Positions 7,582 through 25,500 of a stretch of DNA of 38,427 nt are shown piece after piece. How positions within the stretch are numbered: position 1 is the stretch's first letter; each line of letters starts with the position of its first letter. The DNA is from a virus: IMG/VR virus record IMGVR_UViG_3300037882_000760, positions 1-38,427 of that record. One strand, given 5' to 3'. Both the position numbers and the translations under genes were made by a program. A model generated the notes under the pieces. The model was not told the origin of the DNA. It made no database searches and worked only from the letters and a program-made list of their open reading frames with translations.

Positions 7582-7721
7582 GCAAGGTAAAAGAATATCC
7601 AAATAATAAATATATCCTCTGGCCTTGTTTGAGGTGTAACAAGCTTAACTATTGCGGTTACCACAACAAGAAAGGTGCAAAGGACAATCGATAAAATAAA
7701 TGCAAAGATAATTCGTTTCAT
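7563..7721 (-). CDS. Small membrane protein (52 aa, two hydrophobic segments) inside the glycan cassette
   Basis: Not in the >=60 aa track. MKRIIFAFILSIVLCTFLVVVTAIVKLVTPQTRPEDIFIIWIFFYLAWKELK. Its ATG overlaps the stop of the upstream GT (ATGA). Confidence 0.4.
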   Translation of the reverse strand: MKRIIFAFILSIVLCTFLVVVTAIVKLVTPQTRPEDIFIIWIFFYLAWKELK

Positions 7722-8362
7722 ATTCCTACGTTAAAAAGGTTCTTTTTATACAGTCGATTAAATACTTTAATTTGATTGTTTGTTAACTCCCGATACTTAA
7801 CCTTATCGACTTTATTAAGTGTCTGAGATTGCAAGTGTGCAACGTGGCTTTTAGTGATTAAAGCATGGCTTAAACCTTTAGCTTTTAATTGCTCTGAATA
7901 TGCATTATCGCAGCACCAAAACTCTAATCGTTCATCAAAGCCTCCTATACTTTCAATGGTCTTTCTATTGGCCGATATGCACCACCCTGCAATGTGTTTG
8001 CCTACTTGATAGCCTAATTGCACACCGCTTGGAATGTCTTTCCACCATTGCCAATGAGTTAATGGGCACCAAGGGCTGACAGAATCGAAGTTCTTTAGCC
8101 CGTTTTTCAATGGCTCAAACCATCCACTTTTAAATATCAAATCGTTATTGCAAAATACAACGATGTCGCAATTGGCCTTTTTAAACCCATTATTTAGACT
8201 TTTATTGTACCCTTCGAACGGTTCCACAATTACTTCGAATATACCCGTTTTATTAAGCGATTCTATGCACTCAATCGTTAATCGGTCTTGCGTGTTGCCT
8301 ACGATGATTACGCTGGCCTGTGCTTGTTTCTGCATTGTATTTATACCAATAAAGTATTTCAT
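7718..8362 (-). CDS. Glycosyltransferase family 2
   Basis: 214 aa. Motifs ASVIIVGNT..., VVFCNNDLIF (the DxD-equivalent NND), GGFDERLEFWCCD and VAHLQSQT. An alternative ATG lies at 8335. Confidence 0.75.
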   Translation of the reverse strand: MKYFIGINTMQKQAQASVIIVGNTQDRLTIECIESLNKTGIFEVIVEPFEGYNKSLNNGFKKANCDIVVFCNNDLIFKSGWFEPLKNGLKNFDSVSPWCPLTHWQWWKDIPSGVQLGYQVGKHIAGWCISANRKTIESIGGFDERLEFWCCDNAYSEQLKAKGLSHALITKSHVAHLQSQTLNKVDKVKYRELTNNQIKVFNRLYKKNLFNVGI

Positions 8363-8864
8363 TAATATTGTGTTCTGTCTTTAGGTAAGGAAGTAACCGT
8401 TTAGCATAGTCGGCATCTTCTCCCCAAATTAAATCCCTATACCCTGCATTAATAGCGTGCTTCTTTTTAACGGCCATCAAGTGATTAGGGATTCTTAAAA
8501 ACTCGGTTTCGGTATTTTGGTCACGCTTGTATTTTAGCGAATATTTAACAGGTCTTGTTATCGTGCCATCTGAATACTCAACCATGTAATTAACAACATC
8601 AACACCCGTTTTTGTGCCCTCGTAAATCTTCTTTACAAATTCTGGGTGTATTGGGTCGTCATCGTCAATAAAGCAAACGTAAAGACCATCTGCCGCGTTT
8701 ATCATTACATTGCGTTTCTTACCCACGCTCATTGACTGATTATCGCCTAAGTACATGATATCAACGGATAGCCCTTCAGCTTGTTTTTCGAGGTTCTTGA
8801 CTATATCATAAATAAGGTCAACGCGTTTTGTTACGTTGGTAACTAAGATACTAAGCTGTTTCAC
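8271..8864 (-). CDS. Glycosyltransferase family 2
   Basis: 197 aa with a GTG start. Motifs LSILVTNV..., GKKRN..., YVCFIDDDDPIHPEF and WGEDADYAKR. Overlaps the next GT by 65-92 nt. Confidence 0.75.
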   Translation of the reverse strand: MKQLSILVTNVTKRVDLIYDIVKNLEKQAEGLSVDIMYLGDNQSMSVGKKRNVMINAADGLYVCFIDDDDPIHPEFVKKIYEGTKTGVDVVNYMVEYSDGTITRPVKYSLKYKRDQNTETEFLRIPNHLMAVKKKHAINAGYRDLIWGEDADYAKRLLPYLKTEHNINEILYWYKYNAETSTGQRNHRRQHARPIND

Positions 8865-9459
8865 TTTTCGCCTTTCTGCCTCTTTTCTTAGGGGCTTCTT
8901 TTATTTCTAGTTTGGCTCTTTCAGGCAATACTAAGTTTGCAAAATTAACGGGCGCAAGCTTTGGCAAGTCTTCAAAATGTGGAATAGCTTGAAATGCTCT
9001 ATCCTCTGGTGCCCAAGGTAAAACAATACTTACTCCATGGTCGTCAATTACAGTAATCACATGATAAAAGTGCTTTAGCTCTAAAACCGTTTTAAAAACA
9101 TCACCACACCATATCGGCTTTGTATATTCTAAATTGTCAGGGTAGCTATCGTGAAACACAATAGCACCGCCTTCATTCAAACATTCAATAGCATTTTCAA
9201 AATCTTTCATCGATTGTGCCGCGGTATGAAGCCCATCAATAAAAATCAAATCAAAGGTATTTTTATTCTGCTTGAAAAACTCATCGCTTGTACCTTTAAA
9301 ATCGGGCTTTGCGTTATTGTCAGGGTCAACGCAAAATTTATTCTTTGCCTTGATTTTATTAAAGTTTTGATCCCTCGTTTGGGTTCCAATCTCCAAGTAA
9401 TCAACATACCCATAAGTATCGATTAACTTGTTTAAAACGTCCGTTCTAGTTGCGTTCAT
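8851..9459 (-). CDS. Class I SAM-dependent methyltransferase (Methyltransf_24 / TylF-like, sugar O-methyltransferase type)
   Basis: 202 aa. Motif I YLEIGTQTRDQ, then FDLIFIDGLHTAAQSMKDFENAIECLNEGGAIVFHD. Basic K-rich tail. Confidence 0.7.
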   Translation of the reverse strand: MNATRTDVLNKLIDTYGYVDYLEIGTQTRDQNFNKIKAKNKFCVDPDNNAKPDFKGTSDEFFKQNKNTFDLIFIDGLHTAAQSMKDFENAIECLNEGGAIVFHDSYPDNLEYTKPIWCGDVFKTVLELKHFYHVITVIDDHGVSIVLPWAPEDRAFQAIPHFEDLPKLAPVNFANLVLPERAKLEIKEAPKKRGRKAKSETA

Positions 9460-21163: not shown

Positions 21164-21632
21164 TGAGTAATACGCTATCGACTTTTTGTAAATATACTAA
21201 TTCTATTTGGTCTGCCATTTCTTTTTCGATTCTATCGATTAGGCTATCGTTAATAATTGAACTGAATACATTCTCGTAACGTCCTTGACCTCGGTATAAA
21301 GCGGTTCCACTATCCCCTATTTTACGGGCTATTAAGAACGCTAACGAATCTTTGCTTATTCCTTTAGGCACTATACCCTTATCATCTATCCATTGGCGTA
21401 TTGAATCAATCGGAGGTCTTCCCCCAGGGCGCCTACCTTTTTCAACAAAGTACCAATATCCAATGCCCGATATTGTTAGCTCCGCTGTTGTTGGTGTTTC
21501 TTTTACCGTTGATTCTAAAGACCTCGAAAGTTTGCCGCTTGCATTAACTCCTAACTTCGCAAGGTTAGCCTGCAAATCGATTACGATTTCATTACCTTGC
21601 TTAATCAGTATATCAGATAAGGTACTCAACAA
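21141..21632 (-). CDS. Virion morphogenesis/neck protein (HK97 gp10-like?)
   Basis: 163 aa with a TTG start and no in-frame ATG nearby. Motif FVEKGRRPGGRPPIDSIRQWIDDKGI. Confidence 0.5.
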   Translation of the reverse strand: MLSTLSDILIKQGNEIVIDLQANLAKLGVNASGKLSRSLESTVKETPTTAELTISGIGYWYFVEKGRRPGGRPPIDSIRQWIDDKGIVPKGISKDSLAFLIARKIGDSGTALYRGQGRYENVFSSIINDSLIDRIEKEMADQIELVYLQKVDSVLLNGITSTK

Positions 21633-22075
21633 GGGTCGGATTTAAGTATTTCTACTGTCATTGTGATTCGATGACCTGTAACTATTAACATCTGGTCACG
21701 ATAGAACGGAACCCATGAAGCGGCCAAAATACTTATTGTGTCAGAATCATTGAACGAGTAAACAAGCTGATTGCAAATCTCATCAGTTAGTTCTGTGATA
21801 GCTCGCATTTCATTGGGTAGGCTGTCGGCTTGGTCTTGTACCATTACATCAATATTGACCGAGTAAGTACGCGTACTTTTAATTGTGCCCGTTAATATTG
21901 TGCTTTGTGAGGTCGCTGGCTCCATCCATATAATAGGATTGTTAATACCTTGGTTCAATACCTTATCGGCTTCGATAGTAAAGAAATCTGAAAGCCTGCC
22001 ATGTCCAAACACAACATTGAACGGCAAATTATTGACCGCTGATTCTATTTCAGTATGTAGTGTTTTGTAGCTCAT
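21626..22075 (-). CDS. Hypothetical virion/neck protein
   Basis: 149 aa. ATGA overlap with the upstream ORF. Confidence 0.55.
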   Translation of the reverse strand: MSYKTLHTEIESAVNNLPFNVVFGHGRLSDFFTIEADKVLNQGINNPIIWMEPATSQSTILTGTIKSTRTYSVNIDVMVQDQADSLPNEMRAITELTDEICNQLVYSFNDSDTISILAASWVPFYRDQMLIVTGHRITMTVEILKSDPC

Positions 22076-22263
22076 CTCCTTATTCTTGCTTGCTCCATTT
22101 CTCTTTTCATTTGGTAAACATTCTTTAGTTCGTTTTGATACGCTGTCTTATGGCTCATGTACTGCAATTTAGTCAAAACATGGTAGGTTGACAAACTTAA
22201 AACTTCATCTTCTTTAGTAATGTCGCCACCTGTTAAAGCTTCGAGCGTAACCAATAAACCCAT
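22072..22263 (-). CDS. Small ORF that is probably the -1-frame extension of 22233-22832
   Basis: The first ATG is at 22263 (the track used GTG at 22272). This frame is open upstream exactly to the T9 run at 22366-22374 and is closed there by TGA at 22375-22377. Confidence 0.5.
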   Translation of the reverse strand: MGLLVTLEALTGGDITKEDEVLSLSTYHVLTKLQYMSHKTAYQNELKNVYQMKREMEQARIRR

Positions 22264-22832
22264 TTGCTCCACAAAGTCTTTAACGCCTGCTTGGATTTCT
22301 TCTTGTTCGTAATCGTTGTGAGCACATCTTGCTTCATGCCAAGCTCTAATCCTATCGATTTCAAGAAAAAAAAATCAACTATCGAATAAATATCCATCCA
22401 AGGTAATGATTCAATATCACTCACATACTTCTTTGCCTCGGTTGAATTGTATTGCCCCACCTTCATATATTGATAAGCGCACGCCACGATTAACGGATAA
22501 TTGGCGCGCATTACTTCTGTCTGATTAGAGGCTGACACCACTTGCATGGTCAGGGCTTTTATATCTTCAATCAAACCGAAAGGCCAATTGCCTATATCGT
22601 TAGGTAAATTGATTCCTAGAATAGATTCTACTTTGTGGGATTTCTTATCGGGTAGGTCAGAAATAAATCCTATCGATTTAATCAGGTCCATCACCTCTTT
22701 TACTGGCCTTTGCTTTAGCTCGGTCAATGGGATTGAATAAATAATCGATACATAGTCAAGGTTATCACCCCCATCATCCATATTAATGATTAGGTCGTGA
22801 TATTGTTTCCAGCTTAAATCTTTCCAGTTCAT
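22233..22832 (-). CDS. Hypothetical protein downstream of terL; zero-frame product of a candidate frameshift pair
   Basis: 199 aa with an ATGA overlap to terL. Contains GAU UUU UUU UUC (D153-F156). Confidence 0.6.
   Translation of the reverse strand: MNWKDLSWKQYHDLIINMDDGGDNLDYVSIIYSIPLTELKQRPVKEVMDLIKSIGFISDLPDKKSHKVESILGINLPNDIGNWPFGLIEDIKALTMQVVSASNQTEVMRANYPLIVACAYQYMKVGQYNSTEAKKYVSDIESLPWMDIYSIVDFFFLKSIGLELGMKQDVLTTITNKKKSKQALKTLWSKWVYWLRSKL
22366..22374 (-). other. T9 homopolymer; candidate -1 ribosomal frameshift or transcriptional slippage site
   Basis: A9 on the plus strand, giving U UUU UUU UU in the mRNA. The -1 frame opens precisely here and runs 100 codons to the ATGA junction at 22072-22075. 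Confidence 0.45.
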
Positions 22833-24262
22833 CGTCTTCGGTGTAGTTGTATTTGAGGTTGTAAAATCTTGTTTACTAATTTATCAATTGCCATTATCGC
22901 ACAATCCACCAAGTCGTCATGTTGCCCGTTAGGGAAGCTTGTAAGCTGATGAATAAATAAATCATTCCATAAAGCTTTTTTAATCTTAACCCTTTTCGTT
23001 TCAAATACCGAGCTTACCGCGTGTAACCTTGTAATCTTGTCGCTTTCTGGTGCCTTGTCTTCAATGATGTTTATTCCGCTAATCGCGCGCAACTGTTGAA
23101 CTATACTTTTACCGCTTGCTTTAGGTTCCACATAAAAGCGGCTCATTACGTTTGCCCCGTTTTCAGTCCAGACCTCTTTAATCTTATCGCACAACTGAGG
23201 GAACTCTAAGCGCAAGTTGTAAACGTTCAATATGTAAATGTCATTATTTATTATCTTAAATGCAATAATGCCCGTGGCATCGTTGGAGGTCTTAGCGGTA
23301 TATGCGGTATCGGCTACGAATAAAACGGGGCTATTGTTTGCGGGCTCAAAGTCAATCACTTCTAACCATTCGCTTTTAATAATGTTACCGCCTTCACTAA
23401 TCGGGCTTTGCTGATATAGGGAGCTAAAAGTCTTTTGGCTTAGTTCTTTGGCCTCGTATAACCTTTGCAAGCTGTGACGATTTGGCCATAAGGCTTCCCC
23501 TATTTGCCTAGGGTCTTCTTTGTTTAAATCGTCCACCTTTATAGCTGGCAACATTAAGACAGTCCAGTCATTTTCCAAAGCAAGTAAACGCCCTGCGAGG
23601 TCGTCTTCATGCCAACGGGTCATTGTTAGTAATTGTTGGCTATCGTTATGTAATCGGGTTTTTAAAACAGAAACGTACCACTCCCAAACGTTATCCCTTA
23701 CGCGTTGAGAATAGGCATCCATTGCATCTTTAACGGGGTCATCGATTATTGATATATCGGCAGGTGTTCCCGTTAATGAGCCACCAACACCAACGGACTT
23801 ATAGAAGCCTCTATGCTTTACGATTTCAAATATATCAGCGTTACGAAGATACGAACCTGCCGCAGCATTCTTAACGTTTGAACCGTTCAATAATGTATCT
23901 GGGAATAGTTCTCGGTACTCTTCGCTATCAATACCCCTTTGAACATCTCTATTAAATGCACTCGATAGGTCTGATGAATAAGAAGCCCCTACTATCTTCT
24001 TTGTTGGGTACTTCCCTAGTATGTAGGCTGGCAGCTTCCTTGATACTAATTCGCTTTTGCCATGTTGAGGAGGCATGAAGACCGCAAGCTTTTGAATATC
24101 GCCTTTGATGAACCTATCTAGGTACGAGCATAGCAGTAAATGGTGCCAGTTGAATTGATAGTCTGGCTTGGTATGCCTTACGAACTCGGACATTGACCGC
24201 CTTGCTTGCTCGTGCTTAATCTGCTGGAGAATGTTGTTTGGCAGGTTCATTGTGTTAACCAT
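22829..24262 (-). CDS. terL: Terminase large subunit
   Basis: The track ORF starts at TTG (24295); the first ATG is at 24262. Walker A-like FMPPQHGKSE, TMTRWHEDD, and a C-terminal nuclease part FVADTAYTAK...HDDLVDC. Confidence 0.9.
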   Translation of the reverse strand: MVNTMNLPNNILQQIKHEQARRSMSEFVRHTKPDYQFNWHHLLLCSYLDRFIKGDIQKLAVFMPPQHGKSELVSRKLPAYILGKYPTKKIVGASYSSDLSSAFNRDVQRGIDSEEYRELFPDTLLNGSNVKNAAAGSYLRNADIFEIVKHRGFYKSVGVGGSLTGTPADISIIDDPVKDAMDAYSQRVRDNVWEWYVSVLKTRLHNDSQQLLTMTRWHEDDLAGRLLALENDWTVLMLPAIKVDDLNKEDPRQIGEALWPNRHSLQRLYEAKELSQKTFSSLYQQSPISEGGNIIKSEWLEVIDFEPANNSPVLFVADTAYTAKTSNDATGIIAFKIINNDIYILNVYNLRLEFPQLCDKIKEVWTENGANVMSRFYVEPKASGKSIVQQLRAISGINIIEDKAPESDKITRLHAVSSVFETKRVKIKKALWNDLFIHQLTSFPNGQHDDLVDCAIMAIDKLVNKILQPQIQLHRRR

Positions 24263-24295
24263 TTTTTTTTGCGATAGGTAATCCAAATTTAACAA

Positions 24296-25065
24296 ATGTT
24301 TGATTTCATTAGCCTAAAACAATATCGCTTACTTTTTCGGGCTATCCTATTAACTTATATCGATTCTATTAAACCTACCGCGCTAACTCAAAGATTCTCA
24401 ATTTCTATTAACGGCCATTTATACAAATCGAAAAAAGTAACGATAACTTTTTTCTCGGCTCCTAATACAAATGTTGATTTTCTGATAAAGACTTTCGGTA
24501 ACTCAAAGATTCTAAAATTTGTATAATCTTGATTTATACAAACTGAAAAAATAATCAGTTGTTAACTTTTAAGATTTCTGTAAATGTATTAATATTTGTA
24601 TAGATTTCTGTAATTAACACGAACAAAAAAGGCCATTTAAACGCAATAAAGGCACTTTTTTAGGCTCCTTATTAATTCTATTAATTTCTATTAAAGAGTA
24701 CTGATTGTATTAACGTCATTTTGCTAACTCAAAGATTATTTTATACAAATTCATTTAAAGTATTTCTAATGAAATAATCTTATCGAAAGCTTATCAGCGA
24801 TTTCTATAAACTTCTATCAATTTCTGATAAACGGATTTGATAACCGAAGGATTATTTTAATAGAATCCGACAGGCTGATTTCTGTTAAAATAAAGTTGTC
24901 GTTACTTTTTGGCCAAATTCTATAAACTTATCAAAGTTTCATTAGCTTGGGCTCGCTAACTCGCGTTAAGTCCTGACATTTTCTTTATCGAGGGATTCTG
25001 TATAACCATAAGATTATTTAGCAATTTCGCTGAATCCTATTAATTCAATACGATTTCATTAACAA
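24296..25065. repeat. Gene-free 770-bp array of short degenerate repeats between terS and terL (candidate pac/recognition, origin or regulatory region)
   Basis: About 21 same-orientation copies of (G)ATT(T/C)C(T/A)NTWA(A), plus one inverted copy (24857-24866). CTAACTCAAAGATT occurs 3 times and TTATACAAA 3 times. Minus-strand frames are full of stop codons. Confidence 0.85.
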
Positions 25066-25500
25066 TCACGAATTACCGCTGGTTGAATCACTTATTGCCT
25101 TTGATAGGATACTTAGCTCCGAATCGCTCAATTTAGTCAGGTCAATGTTTTGTGTCTTGATTGCGCCTCCATCGGCTCCCGTGTGTTCTAAGCTTACCTT
25201 GTCACCGAACTTCTTAGGGGCATACTTTGAAGCCTTCCAACGGTAATGACTTGCCAACTCTCTGGCCCTTGTCATTTCGATAGGGTCTTTTTCCGCTTCT
25301 CTAATAACTTTTTCCGCTAAGTCTGAATAAGATTCGGCTGCATCCTGTTTAGCTTCGCGCACGCGCGCGGAATGGGCCTCATTATTAATAAAATTACGAA
25401 ATGTTGTGTATGGCTGTTGATAAAAGTTGGCTATATCGTGGTTTGACTTACCCGAAAGAATCAGCTCAATCACTTCTTCAATATCAAATGGCCGTTTCAT
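25066..25500 (-). CDS. terS: Terminase small subunit
   Basis: 144 aa. N-terminal HTH (SNHDIANFYQQPYTTFRNFI), then YSDLAEKVIREAE...RARELASHYRWKASKYAPKKFGDK, typical of small terminases. Confidence 0.75.
   Translation of the reverse strand: MKRPFDIEEVIELILSGKSNHDIANFYQQPYTTFRNFINNEAHSARVREAKQDAAESYSDLAEKVIREAEKDPIEMTRARELASHYRWKASKYAPKKFGDKVSLEHTGADGGAIKTQNIDLTKLSDSELSILSKAISDSTSGNS

What the first reader, a model, noticed from the sequence alone, without database searches (positions are those of the whole stretch)
22072..22832. T9 slippery run where the -1 frame opens exactly: candidate programmed frameshift or transcriptional slippage giving a fusion of about 250 aa
Seen: the ORF 22233-22832 (199 aa) contains GAU UUU UUU UUC, which is A9 on the plus strand at 22366-22374. 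The frame of the next small ORF (22072-22263/72) is the -1 frame relative to it. That -1 frame is closed by TGA at 22375-22377, immediately 5' of the run, and is then open for 100 codons. It ends in the ATGA junction with the following gene (22072-22075). The -1 continuation looks like normal protein (FFFLEIDRIRAWHEARCAHNDYEQEEIQAGVKDFVEQMGLLVTLEAL...). The zero-frame tail is short, K-rich and ends in mid-gene. Established: U UUU UUU is a classical -1 slippery heptamer. T9/A9 runs also cause RNA-polymerase slippage (for example Shigella mxiE and Thermus dnaX). Two products from a conserved -1 frameshift are the hallmark of tail-assembly chaperones (lambda G/GT). Inference: this is either a genuine two-product recoding site, possibly a relocated G/GT-type chaperone pair since no such pair sits upstream of the tape measure gene, or a homopolymer length error in the assembly that splits one gene.
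Basis: partly seen in the sequence, partly recalled or inferred. Interest (0 to 1): 0.65.

Follow-up and report, generated by a model that had tools for sequence, protein, structure and literature searches.

The report
Conserved T9 frameshift site in phage gene
A phage gene just after the terminase gene is split by a run of nine T's that is kept in many unrelated relatives, so the full protein can be made only if the RNA polymerase or the ribosome slips by one base there; this is a real recoding site in an uncharacterised gene family, not an assembly error and not a lambda-type tail chaperone pair.

Summary
The minus-strand gene 22832..22233, directly after the large terminase gene (TerL), carries T9 at 22374..22366. 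The -1 frame is closed by TGA just 5' of the run, then open for 100 codons to an ATGA overlap with the next gene.

It is not an assembly error. Fifteen contigs from different samples and pipelines, in at least 7 lineages down to about 22% identity, carry exactly T9 at the homologous spot. The same kinds of source (Logan, ENA) yield T10 and T11 in relatives.

In the window's clade only the -1 frame is under protein selection after the run (dN/dS 0.18, against 0.68 for the 0 frame). The fused 253-aa product aligns end to end with single-ORF homologues. It folds confidently (pLDDT 91) with one helix spanning the junction.

In-frame relatives still keep T9-T11. One subgroup appears to code in both frames after the run.

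Best reading: programmed recoding, most likely mxiE-like RNA-polymerase slippage adding one U. A -1 ribosomal shift on U UUU UUU cannot be excluded.

The lambda G/GT chaperone idea fails on position, sequence, fold and family-wide conservation. The protein's function is unknown. It is a new member of a known kind.

The parts
22233..22832 (-). 0-frame ORF of gene X (199 aa). Codons 1-153 are the conserved N part. Codons 157-199 are an unconserved K-rich tail read from unslipped mRNA.
   Evidence: dN/dS is 0.095 for the N part and 0.68 for the 0-frame tail.
22366..22374 (-). T9 slip site (GA[T TTT TTT TT]C). It contains the in-phase heptamer U UUU UUU. Adding one U, or a -1 ribosomal shift, joins the two frames.
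   Evidence: Exactly T9 occurs at the homologous position in 15 contigs.
22360..22379 (-). 20-nt block GTTGATTTTTTTTTCTTGAA, invariant in all five clade-1 genomes. It spans seven consecutive degenerate codons (VDFFFLE) with no synonymous change.
   Evidence: Elsewhere only 34% of amino-acid-invariant degenerate codons have an invariant codon.
22375..22377 (-). TGA that closes the -1 frame immediately 5' of the run. It is a by-product of GTT GAT, but it rules out entry into the -1 frame upstream of the run.
22072..22374 (-). -1-frame continuation: 100 codons plus stop, forming the conserved C part of the 253-aa product. It holds the family-invariant A182, G183 and G192. The first possible start codon (GTG, codon 188) lies downstream of A182/G183.
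22072..22075 (-). ATGA overlap: the stop of the -1-frame product overlaps the start of the next gene. It is conserved in all five clade-1 genomes and suggests translational coupling to ribosomes arriving in the -1 frame.
22829..22832 (-). ATGA overlap between the TerL stop and the start of gene X.
22829..24295 (-). Large terminase subunit, the conserved upstream neighbour of gene X. The true start is probably the ATG at 24262.
   Evidence: The same synteny is seen.
21626..22075 (-). Downstream 149-aa gene, probably a lambda gpU-type tail terminator.
   Evidence: The model has low confidence (pLDDT 52), but the top Foldseek hits are consistently tail terminators.

Best explanation
Gene X is one gene whose conserved 253-aa product needs a one-base change of frame at the T9 run.

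Most likely mechanism (inferred): the host RNA polymerase slips on the nine-base tract (U in the RNA, A in the template) and adds one U to a fraction of transcripts. Ordinary translation of that U10 mRNA reads ...SIVDFFFLEIDRIR... through to the stop that overlaps the start of the next gene. A -1 ribosomal slip on the in-phase U UUU UUU would give the same protein and may contribute.

Unslipped mRNA gives a 199-aa product: residues 1-156 plus a 43-residue tail that is not conserved as protein.

The site therefore sets how much full-length protein is made. It probably also affects how many ribosomes are delivered to the coupled downstream gene, which looks like a tail terminator.

Shown:
- the run and the frame layout are conserved;
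- selection switches frame at the run;
- the fused product is collinear with single-ORF homologues and folds as one unit.

Inferred: which molecular step slips, the efficiency, and the role of the short product. The protein's function is unknown; its position suggests a virion-assembly accessory protein.

The confidence of 0.8 is for 'genuine recoding site'. Within that, about 0.55-0.6 goes to the polymerase being the main slipping step.
For: 1. Exactly T9 at the homologous position in the window and in L001-L004 (62-74% identical N parts by BLASTP), L010, L011, L012, L013, L021/L025 and L005-L008. These come from Logan, JGI, ENA and IMG/VR samples.

2. In clade 1 the gene is 761 nt with no indels. 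Variable sites fall at codon position 3 of the 0 frame before the run (120 of 152) and at position 3 of the -1 frame after it. dN/dS is 0.095 for the N part, 0.18 for the C part in the -1 frame and 0.68 for the 0-frame tail.

3. A search of 1.84 billion representative proteins with the fusion found three classes:
- single ORFs of 245-286 aa that span the junction;
- N-only proteins whose similarity ends at about residue 157-159;
- C-only ORFs that begin at 'xFFF'.

4. AlphaFold2 of the fusion gives pLDDT 90.9 and pTM 0.82, with helix 145-169 running across the junction. Full-length structural matches (TM up to 0.70) are to uncharacterised phage proteins of 220-270 aa.

5. The family-invariant A182/G183 lie between the run and the first possible internal start codon. 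The -1 frame is closed just before the run, so independent initiation cannot make them.

6. There is nucleotide-level conservation. A 20-nt block around the run is invariant, including 7 synonymous sites. In-frame relatives still encode FFF as T9, T10, T10 and T11, never with TTC, although TTT usage is only 0.51-0.83. The naive product over 8 lineages is about 3.5e-5.

7. Points favouring polymerase slippage:
- nine is the run length at which selection against slippage appears in bacterial genes, and mxiE uses a U run with one added U (PMC1088944; PMC5009743);
- no conserved downstream structure or terminator-like element was found;
- T9 out-of-frame and T10/T11 in-frame members are interleaved in the family tree.
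Against: - No RNA or protein data exist, so slippage itself is not observed.
- The heptamer U UUU UUU is in the correct phase in every out-of-frame member. A purely ribosomal -1 shift therefore explains the sequences equally well.
- The FFF motif is a conserved protein feature in AT-rich genomes, so part of the T-run conservation may come from protein sequence plus codon bias.
- The lineages are not fully independent.
- The NJ tree at 20-25% identity is rough.
- The efficiency needed to supply a well-conserved protein is unknown.
Confidence: 0.8

Rival explanations
1. Purely translational -1 programmed ribosomal frameshifting. Two tRNA-Phe slip back on GA-U UUU UUU-UUC. The mRNA stays U9 and RNA-polymerase slippage is negligible.
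For: A perfect X XXY YYZ heptamer is in phase in all out-of-frame members. This includes the FFY group, where the run starts at a different codon position. The product and the frame logic are identical to the slippage model.
Against: - No conserved stimulatory hairpin or pseudoknot lies 5-9 nt downstream, and there is no conserved upstream SD-like element. The only consensus hairpin uses the run itself as one arm and has no compensatory changes.
- A T9 tract is itself expected to make the polymerase slip (PMC1088944).
- UUUUUUU is avoided in E. coli genes in all frames, which the authors attribute to slippage or mutation (PMC4066793).
- The shifted product is the one under selection. That fits poorly with the low efficiency I would expect, from general knowledge, for an unstimulated heptamer.
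Confidence: 0.3
2. Assembly or sequencing error: the true genome has T10 and one plain 253-aa ORF.
For: Homopolymers are a classic error site. One extra T restores a single ORF. Some relatives do have T10 in frame.
Against: - Fifteen contigs from at least 11 different samples and four repositories all show T9. One of them was seen in two samples.
- The same kinds of source (Logan, ENA) report T10 and T11 where the ORF is in frame.
- In the FFY group the 0 frame after T9 is itself conserved coding sequence, so T9 is the functional genomic state there.
Confidence: 0.03
3. Split gene or pseudogene. Either the 199-aa protein and a separately initiated 63-66-aa protein (GTG 22272 or ATG 22263) are the real products, or the C part is a decaying remnant.
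For: Gene callers annotate a 63-aa ORF in L002 and C-only ORFs in other lineages.
Against: - The 34 codons between the run and the first start codon are under purifying selection in the -1 frame. They contain the family-invariant A182/G183 and the WHE.RC motif.
- TGA closes the -1 frame just before the run in clade 1 and L012. L011 has no start codon either.
- A 100-codon ORF intact in five genomes, with dS about 0.8 between them, is not decay.
- A predicted helix runs through the junction.
Confidence: 0.03
4. DNA-level phase variation. The tract toggles between T9 and T10 by replication slippage, and only the T10 sub-population makes functional protein.
For: T9, T10 and T11 states are interleaved in the family tree, so the tract does change length over evolutionary time. 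Long runs are hypermutable (PMC1088944).
Against: If T9 genomes were non-functional they would not be the consensus in 15 assemblies. Nor would they keep the -1 ORF under purifying selection over deep divergence. A lytic-cycle structural-module gene offers no obvious benefit from ON/OFF switching.
Confidence: 0.05

Closest known systems
Shigella flexneri mxiE (and spa13): programmed transcriptional slippage
   Same: Two overlapping ORFs are joined at a run of U's by insertion of one non-templated nucleotide. The longer, functional product needs the slip. The slip also affects the adjacent downstream gene (PMC1088944; PMC5009743). Here T9 needs +1 U, and the stop of the shifted frame overlaps the next gene's start.
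   Different: The gene family and biological context differ: a phage morphogenesis module rather than a type III secretion regulator. Slippage here is inferred, not measured. Relatives toggle between in-frame and out-of-frame run lengths.
Lambda G/GT tail assembly chaperone -1 frameshift
   Same: A phage late gene has a -1 continuation that gives a longer fusion with the same N terminus. A slippery heptamer is present. The arrangement is conserved in relatives.
   Different: - It is not located between the major tail gene and the tape measure gene.
- There is no sequence or fold similarity to chaperones.
- The junction is inside a helix of one fold.
- The 0-frame product runs on for 43-55 codons instead of stopping promptly.
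- Many family members are single ORFs without any slip site.
dnaX: Thermus thermophilus A9 transcriptional slippage and E. coli A AAA AAG -1 frameshift
   Same: A 9-nt homopolymer inside a coding region gives two products with a common N part. It is a precedent for homologous genes reaching the same end by slippage at either level (PMC1088944; PMC5009743).
   Different: In dnaX the long product is the unshifted one and the shifted frames stop at once. In the window's clade the long, conserved product is the shifted one.
Frameshift rescue at homopolymer tracts (Citrobacter rodentium tssM; 9A/9T IS-element genes; endosymbiont poly(A) tracts)
   Same: An interrupted ORF is restored at the RNA level at an A/T run, giving two length variants (PMC4256274 abstract; PMC1088944). 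The endosymbiont cases are cited from my own knowledge.
   Different: Those cases are mostly recent, lineage-specific lesions. Here the out-of-frame T9 state persists in at least 7 lineages down to about 22% identity, and in one subgroup both frames are conserved.

Membership tests
Lambda G/GT-type tail assembly chaperone pair | The two overlapping ORFs lie between the major tail (tube) gene and the tape measure gene. | tested here: not met
   Gene X directly follows TerL. Five genes (149, 163, 830, 260 and 754 aa) separate it from the only tape-measure-like gene, a 721-aa protein with a weak phrog_2854 hit. In Elizabethkingia phage TCUEAP1 the homologue is gp3, right after TerL, with five genes before the annotated tape measure.
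Lambda G/GT-type tail assembly chaperone pair | Sequence or structural similarity to known chaperone families. | tested here: not met
   There is no Pfam, PHROG or NCBIfam hit for the pieces, the fusion or 10 full-length relatives. Neither the PDB sequence search nor the PDB fold search gives a significant match. The only BFVD 'tail assembly chaperone' row has E 0.23 and TM 0.26.
Lambda G/GT-type tail assembly chaperone pair | The shift lies near the 3' end of a complete G domain, and the 0 frame stops soon after the slip site. | tested here: not met
   The junction lies inside predicted helix 145-169 of a single compact fold. The 0 frame continues for 43-55 codons after the FFF motif.
Lambda G/GT-type tail assembly chaperone pair | The frameshift is conserved across the family, so both products are needed. 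| tested here: not met
   About 20 of 50 representative homologues are single ORFs. Thirteen of those have no FFF or T run at all.
Programmed transcriptional slippage sites (mxiE, spa13, Thermus dnaX, 9A/9T IS genes) | A homopolymeric A or T run of about 9 or more on the sense strand, exactly at the frame junction. | tested here: met
   T9 at 22374..22366. The -1 frame opens at the first base of the run.
Programmed transcriptional slippage sites (mxiE, spa13, Thermus dnaX, 9A/9T IS genes) | The run and the two-frame arrangement are conserved among homologues, including at synonymous sites. | tested here: met
   Fifteen contigs have T9 out of frame and four in-frame relatives have T9-T11. A 20-nt block is invariant in clade 1.
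Programmed transcriptional slippage sites (mxiE, spa13, Thermus dnaX, 9A/9T IS genes) | The mRNA population is heterogeneous in run length (U10 species present). | not testable with these tools
   No reads or transcriptomes are available.
-1 programmed ribosomal frameshift cassette | An X XXY YYZ heptamer in phase with the 0 frame. | tested here: met
   GA-U UUU UUU-UUC in the window. The heptamer is in phase in all out-of-frame relatives, including GU-U UUU UUU-UAU in the FFY group.
-1 programmed ribosomal frameshift cassette | A conserved stimulator: a downstream hairpin or pseudoknot at 5-9 nt, or an upstream SD-like element. | tested here: inconclusive
   No common structure is seen across lineages. 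The clade-1 consensus fold has a positive covariation term (+0.84), and its only local hairpin uses the run itself as one arm. With five closely related sequences, absence cannot be proven.

The most novel reading that the evidence does not exclude
The T tract is a family-wide, selected polymerase-slippage device that makes two proteins with one N part and alternative C termini. The genomic run length (T9 out of frame; T9, T10 or T11 in frame) sets which isoform is the major one.

In the FFY subgroup (L005-L008, P0041, L021/L025) the second frame has been overprinted into a real second C-terminal domain. The evidence is:
- the 0 frame is under selection (dN/dS 0.17);
- the -1 frame is open in only 1 of 20,000 synonymous simulations;
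- the -1 peptide scores above all 2,000 null sequences against the canonical C-domain profile.

This would be a conserved transcriptional-recoding family in tailed phages outside the tail-chaperone paradigm. It would include dual coding that evolved around a slip site.
Probability: 0.35. Interest if true: 0.75.

Novelty: new member of a known kind. Interest (0 to 1): 0.6.

Why it matters
Conserved recoding in tailed phages is known mainly from the tail-chaperone G/GT pair and a few capsid genes. This adds a different gene family, uncharacterised and always next to the terminase gene in a group of probably Bacteroidota-infecting siphophages. In it a homopolymer slip site has persisted through deep divergence.

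Practical consequences:
- Gene callers split or truncate this gene. Databases now hold many N-only proteins with junk tails and C-only fragments.
- A T9 in a phage ORF should not be 'corrected' automatically.

Biological consequences:
- The mix of in-frame and out-of-frame tract lengths, and the apparent dual coding in one subgroup, make this a useful natural series. It could show how slippage efficiency, isoform ratio and overprinting co-evolve.
- It is directly testable with amplicon cDNA sequencing and a junction peptide.

Tried and rejected
Searches that gave nothing useful:
- Pfam, PHROGs and NCBIfam scans of the pieces, the fusion and ten full-length relatives. The only result was two weak hits to phrog_28240, of unknown function.
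- The PDB sequence profile search and Foldseek against the PDB for the fusion.
- blastn and tblastn against 50,697 phage records. No close relative was found, only the hypothetical gp3 of Elizabethkingia phage TCUEAP1.
- The search for related loci in metagenome contigs and genome contigs.
- An exact degenerate DNA pattern for the clade-1 slip region in metagenome and viral collections.
- Single-protein scans with the L011 fusion, P0010 and P0031.
- A word-indexed profile search with A2, which returned only 6 proteins.
- Searches for RNA signals. There is no conserved hairpin up- or downstream, no terminator-like site at the run, no Rfam family and no tRNA.
- Literature searches, which found no description of this family or site.

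Caveats and corrections:
- AlphaFold2 of the 149-aa neighbour had only three close sequences and gave pLDDT 52, so its gpU-like assignment is only a hint.
- My first reading, that L005-L008 simply repeat the window's arrangement, was wrong. There the 0 frame after the run is the frame with the clear selection signal.

Readings rejected: assembly error, independent initiation of the C part, pseudogene, and G/GT membership. The reasons are under the rival explanations and the membership tests.
Full report
**1. The observation**

All long ORFs in the window are on the minus strand. The order reads: small terminase (25500..25066), a 770-nt ORF-free gap, large terminase TerL (24295/24262..22829), and then the ORF in question, 22832..22233 (199 aa).

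Reading the minus strand gives ...ATA GTT GAT TTT TTT TTC TTG AAA..., with T9 at 22374..22366. The -1 frame shows TGA at 22377-22375. It then has 100 sense codons and a stop at 22074-22072, which overlaps the ATG of the next gene as ATGA.

Adding one U to the run, or slipping back one base on it, joins 153 + 100 codons into a 253-aa protein.

Runs of T8 or longer are under-represented in the window (9 matches against 20.7 in shuffles). This is the only run of nine or more T's on the coding strand.

**2. It is not an assembly error**

A word-indexed search with the fusion found four relatives whose called proteins all stop in the 0 frame after ...SIVDFFFLKS. Their N parts are 62-74% identical by BLASTP.

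Their contigs are L001 and L002 from two Logan runs, and L003 and L004 as two different contigs of one JGI metagenome. All carry exactly T9 at nucleotide 458 of a 761-nt gene with no indels. All have the same GTTGA-T9-CTTGAA context, the -1 frame open for 100 codons, and the ATGA overlap with the next gene.

Further lineages also carry exactly T9 at the homologous place, with the conserved C part in the -1 frame:
- L010, L011, L012 and L013 (Logan and ENA);
- L021 and L025 (IMG/VR);
- L005-L008 (four IMG/VR metagenomes, 23-24% identity).

Contigs from the same kinds of source report T10 (L009, L014), T11 (L015) and an in-frame T9 (L016) where the gene is one ORF. Longer tracts are therefore assembled when they exist.

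**3. Which frame is translated after the run**

In the five clade-1 genes, variable columns before the run fall mostly at codon position 3 of the 0 frame (59/45/120 of 152 each). After the run they fall at position 3 of the -1 frame (17/9/25, then 13/6/31).

| Region | Frame | dN/dS (Nei-Gojobori) |
|---|---|---|
| N part | 0 | 0.095 |
| C part, whole | -1 | 0.18 |
| C part, distal | -1 | 0.13 |
| C part, stretch overlapping the 0-frame tail | -1 | 0.22 |
| 0-frame tail | 0 | 0.68 |

The -1 peptide is almost invariant in places (LTGGDITKED.VLSLSTYHVLTKLQY). The 0-frame tails differ in length (199 or 211 aa) and in sequence.

The first start codon in the -1 frame is GTG at codon 188. The family-invariant A182/G183 and the conserved WHE.RC lie upstream of it, and TGA closes the frame just before the run. 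The C part therefore cannot be made by separate initiation.

**4. The fusion is the native protein**

A full HMMER scan of 1.84 billion representative proteins with the fusion returned 50 hits in three classes:
- Single ORFs of 245-286 aa that align from residue 2 to about 250.
- N-only proteins of about 190-240 aa. For most, similarity ends at residue 157-163 and is followed by K/S/R-rich junk.
- C-only ORFs of about 90-107 aa that begin at 'xFFF'.

The multiple alignment is collinear through the junction.

AlphaFold2 on that alignment gives pLDDT 90.9 and pTM 0.82. The fold is all-alpha, and helix 145-169 runs straight through the junction.

Foldseek finds nothing in the PDB. In BFVD it finds 16 matches at E below 1e-3. 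The best are to uncharacterised phage proteins of about 220-270 aa and cover almost the whole model, with TM up to 0.70. One match is a Nonlabens phage protein.

No Pfam, PHROG or NCBIfam family names the protein.

**5. The tract itself is conserved**

In clade 1 the longest invariant nucleotide stretches are two 20-mers. One is GTTGATTTTTTTTTCTTGAA, which covers seven consecutive degenerate codons without a synonymous change. Elsewhere only 34% of amino-acid-invariant degenerate codons have an invariant codon.

The four in-frame relatives with the FFF motif whose DNA I could read encode it as TTT TTT TTT in every case (T9, T10, T10, T11). Phe TTT usage in these loci is 0.51-0.83. The naive product of p^3 over eight lineages is about 3.5e-5, but the lineages are not fully independent.

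A rough NJ tree of the N parts places T9 out-of-frame and T10/T11 in-frame members side by side within the FFF-bearing subfamily. The tract has therefore changed state repeatedly. A second subfamily has no FFF and no run.

Every out-of-frame case is 'in-frame T10 minus one', which needs +1 nucleotide or a -1 shift.

**6. A correction and an extension: the FFY group**

In L005-L008 the 0 frame after T9 stays open to the next gene and carries the selection signal. Between L005 and L007 the differences by codon position are 1/5/11, with dN/dS 0.17 in the 0 frame and 0.90 in the -1 frame. Its tail is homologous to that of P0041 and, weakly, to that of L025.

The -1 frame is nevertheless open across all 88 overlapping codons. 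That happened in 1 of 20,000 simulations that kept the 0-frame protein and the codon usage (median open length 8 codons). The -1 peptide scores 13.1 bits against a profile of the family C domain, above all 2,000 null sequences (maximum 9.9).

In L021/L025 the -1 frame is a clear canonical C domain (31 bits, E 1e-8). The 0 frame is open for 55 codons (P = 0.0017 given the -1 protein).

This group therefore seems to code in both frames after the slip site.

In the window's clade the 0 frame also stays open longer than expected (P 0.001-0.006). The values for other lineages are L012 0.048, L011 0.13 and L010 0.19. This is suggestive only, and there the tail shows no protein-level constraint.

**7. 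Mechanism**

The sequences fit two mechanisms that give the same protein.

Transcriptional slippage is the more likely. A T9 sense-strand tract is the length at which bacterial coding regions show selection against slippage. Shigella mxiE joins two ORFs by adding one nucleotide at a run of U's, and Thermus dnaX uses A9 (PMC1088944; PMC5009743).

No conserved stimulatory RNA structure, SD-like element or terminator-like hairpin accompanies the run. Relatives tolerate tract-length changes.

A -1 ribosomal shift on U UUU UUU cannot be excluded. The heptamer is in phase in every out-of-frame member, even where the run starts at a different codon position (GA[T TTT TTT TT]C against G[TT TTT TTT T]AT).

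I put about 0.8 on 'genuine recoding site'. Within that, roughly 0.55-0.6 goes to slippage by the polymerase being the main contributor.

The stop of the shifted frame overlaps the start of the next gene in all clade-1 genomes. The amount of shifting therefore probably also tunes the downstream gene by translational coupling (inference).

**8. Context and the chaperone idea**

Gene X follows TerL in the window and in L001-L005, L009, L012, L015, L016 and Elizabethkingia phage TCUEAP1. In L011 two small ORFs intervene.

The next gene (149 aa) gave a poor model (pLDDT 52). Its top Foldseek hits are nevertheless uniformly tail terminators: lambda gpU at E 7e-5 and TM 0.54, plus T5 p142 and the R4C and A-1(L) terminators. 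Gene X therefore opens a neck/tail block.

The only tape-measure-like gene is five genes further on.

The G/GT reading fails on all four defining features I could test: position, similarity, domain logic and family-wide conservation of the shift. The resemblance is limited to 'phage late gene with a -1 extension'.

The hosts are probably Bacteroidota. The cultured phages among the detectable relatives infect Elizabethkingia and Nonlabens. This is an inference.

**9. Verdict**

This is a real, evolutionarily conserved recoding site in an uncharacterised phage protein family. It works like mxiE: a T9 tract that needs +1 U. It is a new member of a known kind of mechanism.

The library searches found no prior description. 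The apparent dual coding in the FFY subgroup and the in-frame/out-of-frame toggling are the most novel aspects and deserve experimental follow-up.

Noticed in passing
window 24296-25065: A gap of about 770 nt with no ORF on the coding strand lies between the small and large terminase genes. It holds five copies of a roughly 17-nt motif (TAACTCAAAGATT... on the + strand) and a 56-nt imperfect repeat pair at 24381-24436 and 24496-24551. It could be a packaging site, a promoter array or an origin.
   Followed up: partly
window 24260-24295: A sense-strand A9 (24270-24262) abuts an ATG at 24262-24260. The mechanically listed TTG start of TerL at 24295 is probably wrong. The A-rich leader fits Bacteroidota-style initiation, and this is not a second recoding site.
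   Followed up: partly
window 22829-24295 compared with L001, L003, L004: Close relatives of gene X sit next to two different large-terminase types: Terminase_6N/6C in the window and L002, and Terminase_3 in L001, L003 and L004. The mosaic breakpoint lies at or near the TerL/X ATGA overlap.
   Followed up: no
window 22175-22194: A second 20-nt block invariant in all five clade-1 genomes (TTGTCAACCTACCATGTTTT) lies inside the -1-frame C part. It coincides with a sigma-70-like TTGTCA-17-TAAATT match on the coding strand. It may be an internal promoter or another nucleotide-level signal.
   Followed up: no
window 21626-22075: The 149-aa gene coupled to the shifted frame looks like a lambda gpU-type tail terminator. 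Foldseek gives E 7e-5 with consistent top hits, but the model has pLDDT of only 52.
   Followed up: partly
L005-L008 (run at gene nt 472) and L021/L025: In the FFY subgroup both frames after the T9 are maintained. The 0 frame is under purifying selection. The -1 frame is open in only 1 of 20,000 synonymous simulations and is homologous to the canonical C domain. This is apparent dual coding around the slip site.
   Followed up: partly
protein P0032 (no DNA seen): This single-ORF relative reads GGFF, then LKRNNRETLTKK... in place of the usual helix, and rejoins the family at LQAGF. It looks like a genomic frameshift at the tract compensated a few codons downstream.
   Followed up: no
window 7718-9459: A DNA methyltransferase-like gene and two glycosyltransferase-like genes sit between the capsid-protease block and the portal gene.
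   Followed up: no
clade-1 gene X, N part against C part: Synonymous divergence drops from about 2.0 in the N part to about 0.7-0.9 in the whole C part. The downstream 149-aa protein is 88% identical between genomes. This suggests a recombination boundary near the slip site, or extra constraint on the C-part nucleotides.
   Followed up: no
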